A DNA stretch of 64,000 nt from an uncultured bacterium (lineage in GTDB: Bacteria > JACRDZ01), in NCBI GenBank assembly GCA_964457585.1, contig CAYWFU010000004.1, positions 13,927-77,926 of the forward strand, in the 5' to 3' direction. Shown in pieces: positions 5,739 to 50,124 of this stretch. Under the pieces are notes generated by a model that worked only from the letters and a program-made list of their open reading frames with translations, searched no databases and had not been told where the DNA came from. Numbering within the stretch: the first letter of the stretch is position 1; the number at the start of each line of letters is the position of its first letter. Position numbers and translations under genes: made by a program.

Positions 5739-7454
5739 TTAAAATATATCTTCCTGCGTAACTCGCAAAACTTCCTCAATTGTTGTTATTCCATTGATAA
5801 CTTTTTGCGCGCCATCTTCTCTTAAAGTAAGCATGCCTTTTTTGCGAGCAATTTTTTTAATTGAAGAAGAATCTATTTTATTTAAAATAGAATCACGTAT
5901 ATCTCCATCTATAATCAGGAGTTCATAAATACCCAGTCTACCCAGATACCCTGTATTCAAGCATTTAGAACATCCTTTTCCGCGAAATACAAATCCATTT
6001 TCTAAATTTTTAACTGTGAGTCCAATTTCCTTAAGTAAATCAGTTGAAGGGGTGTAAGGTTCTTTACAATTATTGCATATTACTCTTACCAGTCGTTGAG
6101 CAAGTACTGCTATGACTGAAGATGAAACAAGATAAGGCTCTACGCCCATATCAATTAAACGGGTAATTGCACCGGACGCATCATTAGTATGTAATGTGCT
6201 AAATACCAGATGTCCTGTTAAAGATGCGTGAATCGCTATTTCCGCTGTTTCATAATCACGTATTTCTCCAACCATTATAATATCTGGATCCTGACGCAGA
6301 ATTGAGCGCAGCCCATTTGCAAATGTCAATTCAATTTTGGGATTAATCTGTATTTGTCCAATTCCATCTAATTGATATTCGACAGGGTCTTCAATAGTAA
6401 TGATATTTTTTTCAACGGAATTAATATGACTTAATGCAGCATATAAAGTAGTAGTTTTCCCGCTGCCTGTTGGTCCTGTAACTAAAATAATACCATTAAA
6501 ACTATGTATTATTTTTTCTATTTTCGAATAAATACTTGAAGAAAATCCTAATTGCCTTAAATCCAGAAGTAAATTACCCCTATCAAGCAAGCGCATTACA
6601 ATTCTTTCTCCATAATTAACAGGAATAGTTGATAGACGAATATCTATTTCATGGTTAAGAATTTTTATTTTAATTCTTCCATCCTGAGGCAGACGGCGTT
6701 CGGCAATATTAAGATTCCCCATAATTTTTATACGTGAAGTTATAGCAGCCTGATATTGTTTTGGCGGGCTTAAAGCTTCATAAAGCATTCCATCCACGCG
6801 ATATCTTACTTTTAAATCTTTTTCAAAAGGTTCTATATGGATATCACTTGCGCGCTCATTTATAGCTCTTGTAAGAATAAGATTAACAAATTTAATAATT
6901 GGAGCTTTATTTGCCAGATCAAGCAGATCTTCCTGCTCTTCTATATGAATAACAGGCAGTTCATCGTCAGCTTTTTTTAAATCGCTTAACATTTTTTGTG
7001 TTGAATCAGTTTCTCCGCCGTATATTTTGTTAATTGCTTTTTTGATTTCTTCATCTGTGCATATTACTGGTTCAACAATATATCCCAATAAAAGATTAAT
7101 ATCATCCAGAGGCTGCAAATCAAGCGGGTCAGTCATTGCTACTGTTAGAGTTTTTTGATTTATCTCAATAGGTATTAAGCTATGTTTTTTAACAAAATTT
7201 AATGGGATTTGCGATATGATTTCTTTTTTTATTTTATATTCAGAAAGGTCTAATATTACTGGTATGCCAAGTTGCTTGCCAAGACAGCGTAAGAAATCTT
7301 CTTCTTTTAAATAACCCAAATCTATCAAAATCTCGCCAATACGCTTATGTACTTTCTCTTTTTTTTGTATTTCTAATGCTTCTTTAATTTTATCTTCACT
7401 TAAATGTATTTCCTGAACAATAATTTCACCAATCAGTTTTCTAATTCCTTGCAT
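5739..7454 (-). CDS. gspE: Type II secretion / type IV pilus assembly ATPase (GspE/PilB family).
   Basis: Walker A GPTGSGKTTTLYAAL. Asp and His boxes. C-terminal tetracysteine CNNC...CSKC. N-terminal GspII_E-like domain. 571 aa. Confidence 0.85.
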   Translation of the reverse strand: MQGIRKLIGEIIVQEIHLSEDKIKEALEIQKKEKVHKRIGEILIDLGYLKEEDFLRCLGKQLGIPVILDLSEYKIKKEIISQIPLNFVKKHSLIPIEINQKTLTVAMTDPLDLQPLDDINLLLGYIVEPVICTDEEIKKAINKIYGGETDSTQKMLSDLKKADDELPVIHIEEQEDLLDLANKAPIIKFVNLILTRAINERASDIHIEPFEKDLKVRYRVDGMLYEALSPPKQYQAAITSRIKIMGNLNIAERRLPQDGRIKIKILNHEIDIRLSTIPVNYGERIVMRLLDRGNLLLDLRQLGFSSSIYSKIEKIIHSFNGIILVTGPTGSGKTTTLYAALSHINSVEKNIITIEDPVEYQLDGIGQIQINPKIELTFANGLRSILRQDPDIIMVGEIRDYETAEIAIHASLTGHLVFSTLHTNDASGAITRLIDMGVEPYLVSSSVIAVLAQRLVRVICNNCKEPYTPSTDLLKEIGLTVKNLENGFVFRGKGCSKCLNTGYLGRLGIYELLIIDGDIRDSILNKIDSSSIKKIARKKGMLTLREDGAQKVINGITTIEEVLRVTQEDIF

Positions 7455-7571: not shown

Positions 7572-9833
7572 TTATTTTTCAATTATTAAACTATCATAAT
7601 GAACACTGGTTGTATCTATAACAAATGGTTCTCTTTTAGGCGAAGTATTGGAAAGAGTTTTTATCCCTTTGTTTTCATCTATAAAAGTTTGAAATTGAGT
7701 TTTTTTATCTTCAGTAACTTTATCAAAATCTTTACTATTTGCAATAATATGAGGAGTTATAAAAATCATTAAATTCGTTTTTGAATTTATTTCTTTTTTA
7801 CGTTTAAATAATATTCCAAGATACGGGATATCTCCTAAAAGCGGGATTTTGCTTTCTGCAGTACTTTTATCATTTCTTATTAAACCGCCAATAACAATTG
7901 TTTTTGAATGTTCAACAATGACAGAAGTTTTTGCTTTTCTTTTTGATGTTCTTGGAGCATCTGTAACACTAGCATCAACAACTTTACTTATTTCCTGTAA
8001 AATTTCCATACGCACCATTTTTGTCTGTTTATTTATATGCGGTGTTATTTTAAGAGTTATGCCAACATCTTTATAATCATATGTTTTAATAACATTATTT
8101 GTATCAGTAACGCGGCTATTGGTAACAAATGGTATTACATCGCTTATTACGATTTCTGCTTCTTGATTATCCATTGTAACGATTTGAGGAGTTGACAGAA
8201 TATTAAAATCAGAGTCAGCTTTGAACATATTTATTAATGCTCCAACACTTGATAATTTTGGAAGACCGGTATTTTCGTCAATCCCTTTTCCTTTCATAAG
8301 TCCTACACTGAATCCCATTCCAGGAGCTTCAGCACTTAATCCAAAATTTGTTCCGCCAAATCCAGATACTGCTCCCTCGCCGGGTTTATTTAATGAACGC
8401 CATTCAACACCTAACTGAAGGCTTTTATCCAGACTCATTTCAACAATGGCAGCTTCAACTAGAACCTGTGAGCGGGGGATATCGAGCTGGCTTATAATTT
8501 TTTTAATTGTTGCATAATTCTCAGGCGGTTCATTTATAATTAATGCATTGGTAAATTTATCAGCTACTATATTTGGTTTTATTCCAGTTCCAGGTCTTTG
8601 AGGAGGAGGGGGCTGCCCTGGTTCAGGTTTTTTTTCTACCAGAGGAACATTTGCCAGAACCTTTGCCAATTCTTCAGCATCAGAATTTTCAAGATAATAT
8701 ACGTGAATATCATCGCGGCTGATTGCCATGTCTTTATCCAGAGAATTTACAAATTCTATTATTGTTTTTGTATCTCCTTCATTAGCAAGTACAATTACTG
8801 TATTTGTTCTATCATCAGCCATAGCTTTAAGAATACGTTTATCAGCTTGAGGAATATTTACTCCTGCCTGTCTGTGCACCATCTGCATTTGCTGTTGAGC
8901 AGCCGGGTCTCCAAAAACAGATGTTATATGACCTGCAATCGTTTTTGCTGAAGCATATTTTATCTGAATAAGCGTTGTTTTAATTTCAGCGCCTGGAATA
9001 TCAAGATTCTCTATTACTTTTAACAATCTATGAATATTGGATGCTACTTCTGTTATAATCAATAAATTTGTTGGTATATAAACAGTTATATTGCTGTCTT
9101 TGGAAATTAATGGGACAATAGCTTTTTCAATATCACCAGCCTTAGCATAATTAAGGGGAATGAGTTGTGTGATAATACGGTCTTCATCAGTTATTTTGCT
9201 TGTTTCTCGCCCCACTTCGGTAGAAATATTTTGTTCCCTTGCTCTGCGTTTATTTACGACTCTTACTATTTTGTCTGATTGAACAAGACTAAAACCATTT
9301 AGTTCAAGTATTGATTCTATTACTTTGGCAGCATCTTTTCTTAGTATTTTTTTCGGAGAAATGACTGTAATGGCGCCGCGAACTCCGCCGCTTTCATCAA
9401 TTACAAAATTTTGTCCGGTTAATTCACTTAAAGTTTTAATAACTAATTTCACATCTGTATTATTAAAATCAAGCTGAATCATTTCTTCCTGCGGAGTTTT
9501 ATCCGCAGCATAAATATCAGTATTGAATTTAAGCATTATACAGTTTAATCTGGAAGTGCCAATGAATTGGCACAAATATAAACAATAAATAATTCCTATC
9601 AGAGACAGAAGATACCTCAAGGCTCTACCTCGAGGTATCTTCATTAAAAAAATATAAATAATAAATTTTTTGATATTCATAGGATCTCTATGCCTTCCTT
9701 TCATGAGTATATCTTTATCTGGAAGTGCCAAGAATACCCTGCAGTTTACTGCAGGGATGAATTGGCACAAATATAAATAATAAAATATTCCTATCAGAGA
9801 CAGAAGATACCCTGTGGCCACAGGGTTCTTCAT
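7572..9833 (-). CDS. gspD: Secretin (GspD/PilQ family). The true start is uncertain; the most upstream ATG at 9833 is almost certainly too far.
   Basis: N0-like domain (VKLVIKTLSELTGQNFVID). Secretin core (VLVEAAIVEMSLDK, STPQIVTMDNQEAEIVI). C-terminal S-domain. The 5'-most ~300 nt of the open frame is made of two copies of a hairpin repeat; a candidate start MNIKKFIIYIFL lies at 9679. Confidence 0.8.
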   Translation of the reverse strand: MKNPVATGYLLSLIGIFYYLYLCQFIPAVNCRVFLALPDKDILMKGRHRDPMNIKKFIIYIFLMKIPRGRALRYLLSLIGIIYCLYLCQFIGTSRLNCIMLKFNTDIYAADKTPQEEMIQLDFNNTDVKLVIKTLSELTGQNFVIDESGGVRGAITVISPKKILRKDAAKVIESILELNGFSLVQSDKIVRVVNKRRAREQNISTEVGRETSKITDEDRIITQLIPLNYAKAGDIEKAIVPLISKDSNITVYIPTNLLIITEVASNIHRLLKVIENLDIPGAEIKTTLIQIKYASAKTIAGHITSVFGDPAAQQQMQMVHRQAGVNIPQADKRILKAMADDRTNTVIVLANEGDTKTIIEFVNSLDKDMAISRDDIHVYYLENSDAEELAKVLANVPLVEKKPEPGQPPPPQRPGTGIKPNIVADKFTNALIINEPPENYATIKKIISQLDIPRSQVLVEAAIVEMSLDKSLQLGVEWRSLNKPGEGAVSGFGGTNFGLSAEAPGMGFSVGLMKGKGIDENTGLPKLSSVGALINMFKADSDFNILSTPQIVTMDNQEAEIVISDVIPFVTNSRVTDTNNVIKTYDYKDVGITLKITPHINKQTKMVRMEILQEISKVVDASVTDAPRTSKRKAKTSVIVEHSKTIVIGGLIRNDKSTAESKIPLLGDIPYLGILFKRKKEINSKTNLMIFITPHIIANSKDFDKVTEDKKTQFQTFIDENKGIKTLSNTSPKREPFVIDTTSVHYDSLIIEK
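9548..9647. repeat. Copy A of a nested-hairpin repeat element (short form).
   Basis: atctggaagtgccaaTGAattggcacaaatataaacaataaataattcctatcagagacagaagatacc + hairpin (agatacctc/gaggtatct) + ttcatt. The gtgccaa/ttggcac arms are palindromic. Confidence 0.8.
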
Positions 9834-9836
9834 TGA
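9717..9836. repeat. Copy B of the same repeat element, tandem to copy A.
   Basis: Same 5' and 3' conserved blocks as copy A. It carries an inserted perfect hairpin ccctgcagtttactgcaggg between gtgccaa and ttggcac, and a different terminal hairpin ccctgtggccacaggg. It ends in ttcttcattga, which contains the TGA stop of the upstream gspC-like gene. Confidence 0.8.
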
Positions 9837-49700: not shown

Positions 49701-50124
49701 ACTTGAAGTGAATTGGATAGATGAAGAAAATATATCTAGAACAAGTTTATTTGATAATTTAGAAGATACACTTATAGGTACAGATTATAGCATTGTCCCT
49801 ACAAGTGTATTTGATAGAAGAGATACATTTAATAAAGCCATCGGTTATATTGCCGCCCTTTACCAATTTTTTTGGAATGAAACGCACAGAACAATTTCCG
49901 GCCAAGTCATATCTAATAGTAGTGTTGGAATAGATGGAATTACAATCTATTTTTCTAATAATGGAGGGTCTGTTGTAACCAGTGGTGGTGGTTATTATAC
50001 TATTGATTTGCCAATTGGTTGGAGTGGTAGTGCTACACCGTCATACCTTAATTTTTCATTTGCCCCATCCTCTATTAATTATACTAATGTTAATGTAAAT
50101 CAAGATACTCAGAATTTTACTTGA
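46789..50124 (+). CDS. Secreted multidomain protein: propeptide + S8 subtilisin-like protease + zinc phospholipase-C / P1-nuclease-fold domain + C-terminal beta-sandwich (CarboxypepD_reg-like). Ends at an in-frame TGA.
   Basis: Signal peptide MGKNLFKTAYSLFFILILISNNSYA. S8 triad: VAVIDTGV, DDNGHGTFVAG, GTSASAPMISA. PLC-like: HQWIALQAY, HFWDPDGG, YYWLGRTAHLLMDMSVPAHVHND; compare B. cereus PC-PLC HFYDPDNG and FFYLGLSLHYLGDVNQPMHAAN. Confidence 0.8.
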   Translation: MGKNLFKTAYSLFFILILISNNSYAKTEPALNPFHLEIINKKITIKAQNVNFKDILKEIEKKSEIKVKIFEKVEDSNVSVDVKDIPLNKIEVLFEKMKLKSFVIYYDKESNPYEIWMLSTDKNVNNSTKGKIVRRNEIIRNAKFTEDKDIDNIKGKSIISKSYGKNKVLIRYVKNEIFLKFHRGVTKQEIKDILGKYNLVSKEENTLSKIGYVKAEILGDRDIESVIKEISKEYKLKTSEPNYISNVFAITDPLYENQWYIPDTNFDKAWPKLKNKKVVKIAVIDTGVNSKHPDLKNKILQGFDFVNNDSTSLDDNGHGTFVAGIIAGASNNIGIKGLFDSAKIIPIKTIDGNGAGTYEDVAKGIIYAADNGAKVINLSVGGYAYSFMLLDAVDYALTKGCIVVASGGNDGIEQEIYPAGYADVIGVSALDQNGQIWNKSNSGKHIDVCAPGVNILSLGLDENYVYASGTSASAPMISALAAMLVSEKPDVSSSVIEKLIMQSAKDLGDKGRDKVYGSGEIDALSVFGQEVKLFHDIAVRSVYLEPMVFDKDKLTYVVADIENVGTYRAEKCNVALYQIIGEEKKEIGRKTDVVVSDKLDVVFDWEPDGVKDGVKFEVVVVYKDDSNNANNSKITRLFFLREDGKLYVLYATEPPVHQWIALQAYKLTQKTSLKNEIGKFLDTSTGSLLYSPNFNPNNYGWNNNTNLPTNTNTALIEGTWEEDEGTRPINHFWDPDGGYNDGILLSDSALKSAVSCFDSAIANYKTFPTNAYYWLGRTAHLLMDMSVPAHVHNDQHLEKGFFKADNPENYELYTAYVPLSGVPIYKESNTNNSNLSIPDVTKLPDYWDTEVPQFYPRELVRLFYNLAEITDNCDSDDIIGEVENGNYNRFASRVELLFRLKSISSIIWYRQTINGNRSTGTSQILFIDRDFEYDRGDVGTVYEITKPAIYLYPNIAQQFDEKSYFEEEYDVLEVNWIDEENISRTSLFDNLEDTLIGTDYSIVPTSVFDRRDTFNKAIGYIAALYQFFWNETHRTISGQVISNSSVGIDGITIYFSNNGGSVVTSGGGYYTIDLPIGWSGSATPSYLNFSFAPSSINYTNVNVNQDTQNFT

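What the first reader, a model, noticed from the sequence alone, without database searches (positions are those of the whole stretch)
9548..9836. Two tandem copies of a nested-hairpin repeat lie across the predicted 5' end of the secretin gene, in frame
Copies A (9548-9647) and B (9717-9836) share conserved blocks. These are atctggaagtgccaa...ttggcacaaatataaa, then (t/a)attcctatcagagacagaagatacc, then a terminal hairpin whose sequence differs between copies but keeps its pairing (agatacctc/gaggtatct versus ccctgtgg/ccacaggg), then ttcatt. Copy B has an extra perfect hairpin ccctgcagtttactgcaggg inserted between the palindromic arms gtgccaa/ttggcac. The element contains the TGA stop of the gspC-like gene. 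Both copies translate without stops in the secretin frame, each giving a hydrophobic segment YLLSLIGI(F/I)Y(Y/C)LYLCQFI. That makes the true gspD start and signal peptide ambiguous; candidates are ATG 9833, ATG 9679 (MNIKKFIIYIFL...) or further downstream. Variable stems with conserved pairing are what one expects of a structured RNA or a REP/MITE-like element rather than random spacer.
Basis: seen in the sequence. Interest (0 to 1): 0.68.

Follow-up and report, generated by a model that had tools for sequence, protein, structure and literature searches.

The report
Dispersed palindromic repeat inside secretin start
The two hairpin repeats between the gspC and gspD secretion genes are copies of a small palindromic repeat scattered through the genomes of an uncultivated bacterial group (Desantisbacteria); one copy sits in frame inside the secretin's export signal, an ordinary kind of selfish DNA in an unusual place.

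Summary
Copies A (9545-9644) and B (9714-9833) exist, and a third, composite copy C lies at 43653-43828. An exact 22-nt core search of 185,579 species genomes gave 22 matches, all in one Candidatus Desantisbacteria MAG (JACQWU01). BLAST and a covariance model raise that to about 30 full, short or half copies. The consensus is 127 nt: 5' hairpin, near-invariant core, A/T spacer, 3' nested hairpin.

The stems covary, but G·U and A·C mismatches are equal on the two strands (13 v 12). Orientation relative to flanking genes is unbiased (8 v 7). Many copies are 98-100% identical in unrelated flanks, and an orthologous scpA-scpB site is filled in the MAG and empty here. This points to a DNA-level, REP/MITE-like mobile repeat, not a structured RNA or a peptide gene. 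It has no terminal inverted repeats and no target duplication, and no transposase was found.

Copy B begins at gspC's TGA. Copy A is a 33-codon in-frame insert inside the likely gspD signal sequence: MNIKKFIIYIFL | insert | NCIMLKFNTDIYA^ADKT. Only ATG 9680 has a Shine-Dalgarno-like motif, so the 753-aa ORF from ATG 9833 is probably over-extended.

It is a new member of a known kind, of moderate-to-low interest.

The parts
9714..9833 (-). Copy B, the full-length (long) form, 120 nt. Reading the minus strand: ATGAAGAAC, hairpin 1, core, A/T spacer, nested hairpin 2, CCAGATAAA.
   Evidence: Covariance model R1 gives 133.9 bits, E=2e-27. Alignment A2. Boundaries from about 24 aligned copies.
9545..9644 (-). 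Copy A, the short form, which lacks the inner hairpin of module R. It reads in frame as 33 codons inside the gspD 5' coding region. Its 3' end is CCAGATTAA instead of CCAGATAAA, which removes the TAA stop in that frame.
   Evidence: R1 gives 96.4 bits, E=4e-19. Translations. The same short form occurs at L004_536, L012_114 and L016_781.
43653..43828 (-). Copy C, a composite. A long-form copy has its central A/T spacer interrupted by an inverted, 5'-truncated short-form copy (plus strand 43721-43775). It is intergenic, downstream of the M48 peptidase gene.
   Evidence: The R1 hit is split and spans 43653-43828.
9803..9831 (.). Hairpin 1 of copy B: GAAGA-(A)CCCTGTGG / CCACAGGG(T)-TCTTC.
   Evidence: Helix 1 has compensatory changes at 4 of 14 pairs.
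9608..9642 (.). Hairpin 1 of copy A: a different stem sequence with pairing kept, including one G·U on the minus strand.
   Evidence: inverted repeat I2 (15-nt arms, 93% complementary).
9787..9811 (-). Near-invariant unpaired core of copy B. The same 25-mer occurs at 9592-9616 in copy A and 43778-43802 in copy C.
   Evidence: 3 exact matches, 0 expected. Its 22-nt subsequence gave the 22 genome-collection matches.
9725..9768 (.). Module R of copy B: outer stem GTGCCAA/TTGGCAC enclosing the inner hairpin CCCTGCAG-TAAA-CTGCAGGG (9737-9756). The inner hairpin resembles hairpin 1; both have the form CCCTG..CAGGG followed by TAT.
   Evidence: (I1). Helices 2 and 3.
9556..9573 (.). Module R of copy A, a simple hairpin GTGCCAA-TTCA-TTGGCAC with no inner hairpin.
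9830..10810 (-). The gspC-like gene. Its TGA stop (9832-9830) coincides with bases 2-4 of copy B.
   Evidence: Pfam T2SSC. Junction translation.
7572..9680 (-). gspD (secretin) with its most likely start at ATG 9680 (MNIKKF...). An SD-like AGGAAGG lies at 9693-9699. The N0 domain begins at about 9473, and signal-peptidase cleavage is expected after IYA, between 9507 and 9506.
   Evidence: Pfam N0, Secretin_N and Secretin domains. Upstream regions of the candidate starts. Alignment with other secretins.
9650..9666 (.). A 16-17-nt A/T stretch (minus strand: ATTTATTATTTATATTT) just upstream of copy A. It is identical to the central spacer of copy B and encodes FIIYIF of the putative native signal peptide.
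   Evidence: repeat D2; local score 32 against a shuffle mean of 15.9 (sd 3.1). The rest of the spacer is not similar to the element (p=0.13-0.56).

Best explanation
The repeat is a lineage-specific, non-coding, dispersed palindromic DNA element of Candidatus Desantisbacteria. It is 97-127 nt long and modular.

Anatomy:
- Module L is ATGAAGAAC, then a 13-14-bp hairpin, then a near-invariant unpaired core GGTATCTTCTGTCTCTGATAGGAAT, then an A/T spacer.
- Module R is a GTGCCAA/TTGGCAC hairpin, with or without a second inner hairpin that resembles hairpin 1, followed by CCAGATAAA.

Shown here:
- It spreads or has spread within genomes. There are about 30 copies in one MAG, many 98-100% identical in unrelated flanks.
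- There are half copies, one nested copy, and one orthologous site that is filled in the MAG and empty in the window.
- The palindromes are maintained as Watson-Crick complementarity on both strands.
- Insertion does not depend on the direction of transcription.
- Insertion sites are A/T-rich. When a co-oriented gene lies upstream, the 5' end is often at or within a few nt of that gene's stop codon.

Inferred:
- Mobilisation is in trans, by an enzyme that recognises the hairpins and core. An HUH/Y1-type single-strand enzyme, as for REP/RAYT or IS200/IS605 ends, is the best guess only.

In this window two insertions hit the gspC-gspD junction.
- Copy B sits immediately at gspC's TGA and leaves gspC intact.
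- Copy A sits inside the gspD signal-sequence coding region as an in-frame 33-codon insert: MNIKKFIIYIFL | MKIPRGRALRYLLSLIGIIYCLYLCQFIGTSRL | NCIMLKFNTDIYA^ADKT.
- It follows (inferred) that the hydrophobic stretch encoded by the repeat must now serve as the export signal or membrane anchor of the secretin.
- Translation most likely starts at ATG 9680, with the element's own ATG 9644 as the alternative, and not at ATG 9833.
For: Family and copy number:
- The exact 22-mer found 22 sites, all in MAG JACQWU01, among 185,579 species genomes.
- BLAST and model R1 add divergent and partial copies.
- The window holds 3 copies.

Recent spread:
- L008 and L018 are 100% identical to the consensus, and several others 98-99%, in unrelated flanks.

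Mobility:
- The syntenic block leuA-leuC-leuD-M50-scpA-scpB carries the element between scpA and scpB in the MAG (L025 8030-8156).
- In the window the same two genes are 9 nt apart with no element.
- Copy C is a nested composite.
- Module-L-only copies occur at L011, L015 and L016_6809.

Structure:
- 93% of cells form standard pairs.
- 9 pairs show changes on both sides; 0 of 500 shuffles reach that, and slid controls give 1-3.
- The consensus folds at z=-7.5 on the sense strand and z=-7.0 on the antisense strand.

DNA level rather than RNA:
- G·U v A·C mismatches on the sense strand are 13 v 12.
- Orientation between co-directional genes is 8 sense v 7 antisense.

Not coding:
- The consensus ATG...TAA 41-codon ORF is frame-shifted or stopped in about half the copies.
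- No protein among 5.8 billion shares words with it.
- Open frames of this length occur in 9-27% of shuffles.

gspD start:
- The N0 domain begins 21 residues after M9536, and no hydrophobic segment lies between them.
- Only ATG 9680 has an SD-like motif. Most other window genes have GGAG/AGGA 5-12 nt upstream.
- The sequence on either side of copy A reads as one ordinary signal peptide.
Against: - No terminal inverted repeats and no target-site duplication were found, so the mechanism of spread is unknown.
- No transposase or RAYT was found in the 216 kb held. The one weak tblastn hit was not confirmed by Pfam.
- The near-invariance of the core is partly ascertainment, because the MAG copies were found through an exact core match. 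Copies found otherwise do vary there (L002_1196, L010_1452).
- Between two genomes whose orthologous proteins are only 64-86% identical, the element is 80-95% identical. That would also fit a selected function or horizontal transfer.
- The filled/empty comparison is between diverged genomes, so the exact insertion boundaries cannot be read.
- The 16-nt identity between the 'native' signal-peptide codons and the element's spacer is unexplained. It leaves open that MNIKKFIIYIFL is itself derived from a repeat.
- No signal-peptide predictor was available. The export competence of the interrupted signal sequence is inferred by eye.
Confidence: 0.75

Rival explanations
1. The repeat is a family of structured cis-regulatory or small RNAs. 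The covarying hairpins would function in the transcript, for example in intercistronic processing, attenuation or stabilisation of the gspC-gspD mRNA.
For: - The stems covary.
- The consensus folds far better than shuffles, z=-7.5, and the 331-nt junction region folds at z=-6.3.
- The hairpins score as weak terminator-like sites.
- Several copies fill intercistronic gaps between co-directional genes, for example L007, L013 and window copies A and B.
- The element is conserved between two diverged genomes.
Against: - Orientation is unbiased (8 v 7).
- Neither strand shows a G·U preference (13 v 12).
- The antisense strand folds equally well.
- Conservation starts abruptly at ATGAAG, with no shared promoter.
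- Near-identical copies lie next to unrelated genes.
- Half copies and nested copies exist.
- Rfam gives no match.
- Incidental RNA-level effects of individual copies remain possible, but they do not explain the family.
Confidence: 0.1
2. The repeat is a multicopy gene for a small hydrophobic peptide of about 41 aa (MKNPAAETAGYLLSLIGILYYLFLCQFIPALERQGINGTSR), for example a type I toxin-like membrane peptide.
For: - The consensus and six MAG copies form an exact ATG...TAA ORF that spans the element from end to end and encodes a transmembrane-like stretch.
- Two further copies (L006, L017) stay open from ATG to TAA through a different internal frame.
Against: - About half the copies are frame-shifted or carry stops.
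- The compensatory stem changes alter the peptide.
- No ribosome-binding site or promoter is conserved upstream.
- The ORF is not statistically unusual.
- No similar protein exists among 5.8 billion.
- Both orientations occur inside operons.
Confidence: 0.03
3. The tandem arrangement is an assembly artefact, with repeat-induced mis-joins at the gspC/gspD junction.
For: - An independent Logan assembly of run SRR12113406 breaks its gspC contig inside copy B (L022 ends at 1846).
- Dispersed repeats commonly confuse short-read assemblers.
Against: - Copies A and B differ in form (short v long), in hairpin-1 sequence and in several substitutions, so they are not collapsed or duplicated reads of one copy.
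- The gspC-gspD-gspE order is the normal operon order.
- The reading frame is continuous from MNIKKF through copy A into the N0 domain.
- A contig break at a repeat is expected for unitigs and does not indicate a mis-join.
Confidence: 0.03

Closest known systems
Rickettsia palindromic elements (RPE)
   Same: They are small (about 100-150 bp) palindromic dispersed repeats with an open reading frame, found inserted in frame within conserved protein genes so that the repeat is translated as part of the host protein (PMC10969869; PMC2229807).
   Different: The sequence and host phylum are unrelated. RPEs are reported with about 12-bp terminal inverted repeats (PMC2229807, Table 1), whereas this element has none. 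Almost all copies here are intergenic, and only one of about 33 lies inside a gene.
YPAL / RU-2 of Yersinia, and ERIC / IRU of enterobacteria
   Same: - They are dispersed repeats of 127-168 bp with stable stem-loops, located in transcribed intergenic regions.
- YPAL encodes a hydrophobic open frame, and in-frame fusions create predicted signal peptides (locus YPO1552).
- ERIC fusions create predicted transmembrane proteins (PMC2229807).
- The 127-nt consensus length here equals that of ERIC, which is a coincidence.
   Different: - There is no sequence similarity.
- ERIC has short terminal inverted repeats, and both ERIC and YPAL have target-site duplications (PMC2229807, Table 1). Neither was found here.
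- Here the fusion interrupts the signal sequence of a conserved outer-membrane secretin rather than creating a hypothetical protein.
REP / BIME elements and their RAYT (Y1 HUH) enzymes; IS200/IS605 ends
   Same: - Hairpin units are maintained as DNA palindromes, combined into mosaic or modular arrays, with no terminal inverted repeats and no target duplication.
- Two related subterminal hairpins (both CCCTG..CAGGG-TAT) plus flanking conserved sequence recall the subterminal imperfect palindromes recognised by TnpA of IS608 (PMC3201880) and REPs recognised by RAYTs (PMC3333891; PMC3733652).
   Different: - There is no GTAG or CGTC head next to the palindromes.
- The two hairpins are in direct, not inverted, orientation.
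- No conserved 4-5-nt target was seen outside the element.
- No Y1 transposase or RAYT was found in the DNA available.
- The resemblance is a lead, not a tested membership.
BOX elements of Streptococcus pneumoniae and CIR of Caulobacter
   Same: - BOX has a modular build with optional and repeated sub-modules.
- In CIR the 5' and 3' halves fold independently rather than pairing end to end, and there are no terminal inverted repeats (PMC2229807).
   Different: The sequences and hosts are unrelated. CIR carries a methyltransferase site motif and has stops in all frames. The comparison with BOX rests on my own knowledge of its boxA-boxB-boxC structure and was not tested here.

Membership tests
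MITE in the strict sense | Terminal inverted repeats | tested here: not met
   The 5' end ATGAAGAACC and the 3' end CCAGATAAA are not complementary. Folding of the consensus shows no pairing between the two ends.
MITE in the strict sense | Target-site duplication flanking each copy | tested here: not met
   No consistent direct repeat flanks the 23 copies examined. The flanks are simply A/T-rich.
MITE in the strict sense | Small, non-coding and multicopy, with presence/absence polymorphism | tested here: met
   The element is 97-127 nt. About 30 copies occur in the MAG and 3 in the window. The ORF is not conserved. The scpA-scpB site is filled in the MAG and empty in the window.
MITE in the strict sense | A parent insertion sequence with the same ends in the same or a related genome | tested here: inconclusive
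   None was found in the 216 kb of window plus loci.
REP / REPIN-RAYT | Palindromic units of 20-40 nt with a conserved GTAG or CGTC head | tested here: not met
   The hairpin units are 19-26 nt, but neither GTAG/CTAC nor CGTC/GACG adjoins them in the consensus. Feature definition from PMC3733652.
REP / REPIN-RAYT | A cognate RAYT (Y1 HUH) gene flanked by the repeats | not testable with these tools
   This needs a whole-genome protein search of the source genome and of JACQWU01. Nothing was found in the DNA held.
IS200/IS605-derived non-autonomous element (PATE-like) | Subterminal hairpins at both ends, no inverted repeats, no duplication, and insertion 3' of a fixed 4-5-nt target | tested here: inconclusive
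   The hairpins and the lack of inverted repeats and duplications fit. No conserved target lies outside the element. The conserved ATGA(A) at the 5' edge, or TTTAT on the other strand, could itself be the target, but that cannot be told without exact empty sites.
Structured non-coding RNA family | Covariation specific to the transcribed strand, and a fixed orientation relative to transcription | tested here: not met
   Covariation is present but symmetric between strands (G·U 13 v A·C 12). Orientation is 8 v 7. No Rfam family matches.
Small-peptide gene (for example a type I toxin) | A reading frame conserved across copies, with translation signals | tested here: not met
   The frame is broken in about half the copies and no ribosome-binding site is conserved. 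No homologous protein exists in the collection.
Type II secretion secretin GspD (host gene) | N0, Secretin_N and C-terminal Secretin domains, preceded by a Sec signal peptide | tested here: met
   The domains are found by Pfam. The signal peptide is present only if it includes the hydrophobic stretch encoded by copy A, or is read as interrupted by it. No predictor was available.

The most novel reading that the evidence does not exclude
The hydrophobic segment encoded by repeat copy A (YLLSLIGIIYCLYLCQFIG, preceded by the basic stretch KIPRGRALR) has been co-opted as the working export signal or inner-membrane anchor of an otherwise conventional type II secretion secretin. The change of the element's terminal GATAAA to GATTAAA was kept because it removes the in-frame TAA.

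The family as a whole is kept 80-95% identical across genera because a dedicated, still unidentified enzyme that recognises hairpins and core services it.
Probability: 0.3. Interest if true: 0.5.

Novelty: new member of a known kind. Interest (0 to 1): 0.33.

Why it matters
- **New repeat family.** As far as I could find, this is the first description of a dispersed palindromic repeat family in Candidatus Desantisbacteria. Literature searches found nothing on repeats in this group, and neither Rfam nor the phage and plasmid collections contain it.
- **Annotation.** The family breaks short-read assemblies. It also misleads gene callers: the protein collection holds the secretin as a 753-aa product that swallows both repeats.
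- **Biology.** It adds a clear case of a selfish repeat translated inside the signal sequence of a conserved outer-membrane channel. This could be tested as an example of 'tinkering' with export signals.
- **What it does not do.** It does not open a new category of element or mechanism.

Tried and rejected
- **Rfam.** The gathering-threshold scan of the whole window and the permissive scan of 9450-9900 gave only chance-level hits.
- **Metagenome scan.** The JGI scan with the 22-mer gave 0 matches.
- **Mobile-element collections.** The IMG/VR scan with a 20-mer gave 0. BLAST of the consensus against plasmids and phages gave no match.
- **Peptide search.** The consensus peptide found no candidate among 5.8 billion proteins.
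- **Secretin orthologues.** The N-terminal half of the secretin found only hits of 42% identity or less, so no close orthologue was available to show the ancestral gspD 5' end.
- **Exact look-ups.** The 702-aa and 753-aa secretin products are not on record in the contig index. LeuA of the source contig is also not indexed.
- **Spacer as a decayed copy.** I tested whether the 69-nt spacer between copies B and A is a decayed module L. Beyond the shared 16-mer it is not.
- **Transposase search.** Pfam on 30 window ORFs found none. tblastn with an IS200 TnpA sequence written from memory gave one weak hit at L008 2348-2434 (E=0.001), which Pfam did not confirm.
- **Outward promoter.** I looked for a sigma-70-like promoter carried by the element. 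Only copy A plus its flank gives a strong match (TTGGCA-16-TATAAT, 9562-9535). That transcript would start inside gspD, downstream of every usable start codon, so I do not regard it as functional.
- **Related MAG contigs.** Contigs from JACRDZ01 and JACRIQ01 (14 kb in all) hold no copy. This is too little DNA to conclude anything.
Full report
**1. The observation**

Reading 9300-10100 on both strands and running the repeat finder confirms two copies of a composite repeat.
- They share a 55-nt block at 95% identity (9562-9616 and 9757-9811).
- They share an 18-nt block (9545-9562 and 9714-9731) and a 13-nt terminal block.
- Each copy has a terminal hairpin whose stem sequence differs but pairs (9608-9642 in A, 9803-9831 in B).
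- Copy B has a perfect 8-bp hairpin (9737-9756) inserted in the loop of the gtgccaa/ttggcac stem.

The 25-nt core occurs three times in the window against none in 100 shuffles. The third hit reveals copy C at 43653-43828, in the intergenic region after an M48 peptidase gene.

The genes lie on the minus strand.
- ORF 9830-10810 is GspC-like (Pfam T2SSC).
- ORF 7572-9833 contains the N0, Secretin_N and Secretin domains.
- GspE follows at 5739-7454.

In what follows, 'sense' means the window's minus strand.

**2. A dispersed family**

An exact 22-nt core search of one genome for each of 185,579 species gave 22 matches. All are in a single groundwater MAG, Candidatus Desantisbacteria JACQWU01. BLAST with a consensus and a covariance model (R1) built from 20 copies add divergent, short and half copies. 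That makes about 30 in the roughly 150 kb of MAG DNA fetched, and exactly three in the 64-kb window.

The 127-nt consensus is:
ATGAAGAACCCTGCGGCAGAGACCGCAGGGTATCTTCTGTCTCTGATAGGAATTCTTTATTATTTATTTTTGTGCCAATTCATCCCTGCCTTAGAAAGGCAGGGTATTAATGGCACATCCAGATAAA.

Conservation starts abruptly at ATGAAG and ends at GATAAA. The flanks are unrelated and A/T-rich.

The element is modular.
- Module L is hairpin 1, the core and an A/T spacer. It occurs alone at L011, L015 and L016_6809.
- Module R occurs with the inner hairpin (long form) or without it (short form: copy A, L004, L012, L016_781).
- Copy C has an inverted, truncated short-form copy nested in its A/T spacer.
- Hairpin 1 and the inner hairpin of module R are related. 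Both read CCCTG...CAGGG followed by TAT.

**3. Relationship of the two genomes**

The window's LeuA is 100% identical to an NCBI protein on an 89.5-kb contig and 83% identical to LeuA of the MAG.

MAG contig JACQWU010000272 (L025) is syntenic with window 16.8-22.3 kb. Protein identities are LeuA 83%, LeuC 86%, LeuD 79%, M50 peptidase 64% and ScpA 77%.

Apart from part of scpB, non-repeat DNA does not align by blastn. The element is nevertheless 80-95% identical between the genomes.

In the MAG a full copy lies between scpA and scpB (L025 8030-8156). In the window those genes are 9 nt apart with no copy. This is a filled and an empty orthologous site, although the genomes are too diverged to read exact boundaries.

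**4. What kind of thing it is**

The stems are real. On alignment A2:
- 93% of cells form standard pairs;
- nine pairs show changes on both sides, which no shuffle in 500 reaches;
- slid controls give 1-3 such pairs (RNAalifold).

Three tests argue for a DNA palindrome rather than a functional RNA.
- (a) Sense and antisense strands fold equally well, z=-7.5 and -7.0.
- (b) Among imperfect pairs, G·U and A·C occur equally on the sense strand, 13 v 12. Selection on one transcript would favour G·U.
- (c) Between co-directional genes the element is sense in 8 cases and antisense in 7.

Many MAG copies are 98-100% identical to the consensus in unrelated contexts. That is the signature of recent spread, not of old paralogous RNA genes. 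Rfam has nothing similar.

The consensus is formally an ATG...TAA ORF of 41 codons encoding a hydrophobic peptide. The coding reading fails for these reasons:
- about half the copies are frame-shifted or stopped;
- the compensatory stem changes rewrite the peptide;
- no ribosome-binding site is conserved;
- such an open frame appears in 9% of shuffles for a given frame and 27% for any sense frame;
- no protein in a 5.8-billion collection shares words with it.

I conclude that this is a selfish, non-autonomous palindromic repeat.

**5. How it spreads is not shown**

There are no terminal inverted repeats and no target-site duplications. It therefore fails the strict definition of a MITE.

Several features recall REP/BIME elements and the ends of IS200/IS605 elements, whose Y1 HUH enzymes recognise subterminal hairpins on single-stranded DNA (PMC3201880, PMC3333891):
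- two related subterminal hairpins;
- a conserved unpaired core;
- no inverted repeats and no duplications.

Against membership:
- the GTAG/CGTC head typical of REPs (PMC3733652) is absent;
- the hairpins are in direct orientation;
- no fixed external target was seen;
- no such enzyme was found in the 216 kb available.

This remains a lead, not a test.

One regularity stands out. When a co-oriented gene lies upstream, the element's 5' end is at or within 8 nt of its stop codon in 6 of 9 cases. In three of those cases the stop is bases 2-4 of the element itself:
- TGA for gspC in the window;
- TGA for a 226-aa ORF at L013;
- TAA for rpsT at L021_4147.

This could reflect a target such as ATGA/TRA, or simply the A/T-richness and harmlessness of sites just after a stop.

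**6. The gspC-gspD junction**

Copy B starts exactly at gspC's stop, so gspC is intact.

Downstream of copy B lies a 69-nt spacer that holds the only start candidate with a Shine-Dalgarno-like motif: AGGAAGG at 9693-9699, 12 nt before ATG 9680. Most other genes in the window have GGAG or AGGA 5-12 nt upstream. ATG 9833, 9704, 9644 and 9536 have none.

From ATG 9680 the frame reads MNIKKFIIYIFL. Copy A follows as 33 codons (MKIPRGRALRYLLSLIGIIYCLYLCQFIGTSRL), and then NCIMLKFNTDIYA-ADKTPQEEM-IQLDF....

The N0 domain begins at IQLDF. Other secretins have a signal peptide followed by a short linker immediately before it. Joined together, the residues on either side of copy A form an ordinary signal peptide: a basic n-region, a hydrophobic core, and IYA before the predicted cleavage site. 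Downstream of copy A there is no hydrophobic segment.

So copy A is best read as an in-frame insertion within the signal-sequence coding region. The secretin can be exported only if the hydrophobic stretch encoded by the repeat now acts as signal or anchor (inference).

In copy A the element's usual end GATAAA is GATTAAA. This removes the TAA that would otherwise stop this frame. That is suggestive of selection, but other copies also vary at this end.

The 753-aa ORF from ATG 9833 is the version held in the protein collection. It would carry two or three hydrophobic segments and probably the wrong topology. Copy B being open in that frame is roughly a one-in-three event.

**7. Caveats and unexplained points**

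- The invariance of the core is partly ascertainment, because the MAG copies were found by an exact core match.
- The 16-nt stretch TTTATTATTTATATTT that encodes FIIYIF just upstream of copy A is identical to copy B's spacer. The rest of the spacer shows no similarity to the element.
  - It may reflect an insertion preference for A/T stretches like the element's own spacer, which is where the nested insertion in copy C occurred.
  - It may instead be a remnant of a copy.
- The element's conservation across genomes that are about 80% identical at the protein level would fit recognition by a conserved enzyme, horizontal transfer, or a function I did not detect.
- No signal-peptide predictor was available.

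**8. Comparison and verdict**

In-frame translated repeats are known:
- RPEs in Rickettsia;
- ERIC fusions that create transmembrane proteins;
- YPAL, whose hydrophobic frame forms part of a predicted signal peptide (PMC2229807, PMC10969869).

This is a new family in an uncultivated phylum, with an atypical build: no inverted repeats, no duplications, and two direct hairpin modules. One copy is translated inside the signal sequence of a conserved secretin.

It is a new member of a known kind. It is useful for annotation and offers a small testable case of exaptation, but it is not a new category.

Noticed in passing
window 44697-44988 and 46895-47182: A direct repeat of about 290 nt at 94-96% identity duplicates the 5' part of the 1126-aa ORF 46744-50124. 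It brackets a 2.2-kb A/T-rich segment carrying toxin-antitoxin-like genes: a nucleotidyltransferase lies just upstream at 44143-44469 and a PIN-domain gene at 46236-46655. It looks like an insertion or partial duplication. Copy C lies at the edge of this region.
   Followed up: partly
L001 1025-1050; L007 2892-2918; L008 2223-2248 and 2560-2586: The MAG carries a second, unrelated hairpin repeat, CCTGAATCT...AGATTCAGG. In L001 and L008 it lies a few nt after the main element. It is absent from the window.
   Followed up: partly
window 9535-9562, minus strand: There is a strong sigma-70-like match (11 of 12): the -35 TTGGCA comes from the 3' end of copy A and the -10 TATAAT from the flank. The transcript would start inside gspD, downstream of the usable start codons, so it is probably not functional. 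It does show that the element's end can create outward promoters.
   Followed up: partly
MAG-type copies, e.g. L008 2081-2207: The hairpin-1 loop CAGAGAC is the exact reverse complement of GTCTCTG in the core, which allows an alternative pairing or pseudoknot. Window copies B and C have 2-4-nt loops, so the complementarity is not conserved there.
   Followed up: no
window copy B (9830-9833); L013 about 5078; L021 4147-4150: The stop codon of the upstream gene (gspC, a 226-aa ORF, and rpsT respectively) coincides with bases 2-4 of the element (TGA, TGA, TAA). In three further cases the stop lies 3-8 nt upstream.
   Followed up: partly
window about 29.7-29.9 kb: Gene orientation switches from the minus to the plus strand here, and cumulative GC skew reaches its minimum. 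This could be a replication origin or simply divergent operons. No dnaA gene was seen at the switch.
   Followed up: no
L008 2331-2489, minus strand: A 52-aa ORF between two copies of the second hairpin repeat gives a weak tblastn match (E=0.001) to the C-terminal part of IS200 TnpA. The query was written from memory and Pfam does not confirm the match.
   Followed up: yes
L022 (Logan contig of SRR12113406), 1802-1846: An independent assembly of the same organism ends its gspC contig inside copy B. This shows that the repeat family fragments short-read assemblies.
   Followed up: no
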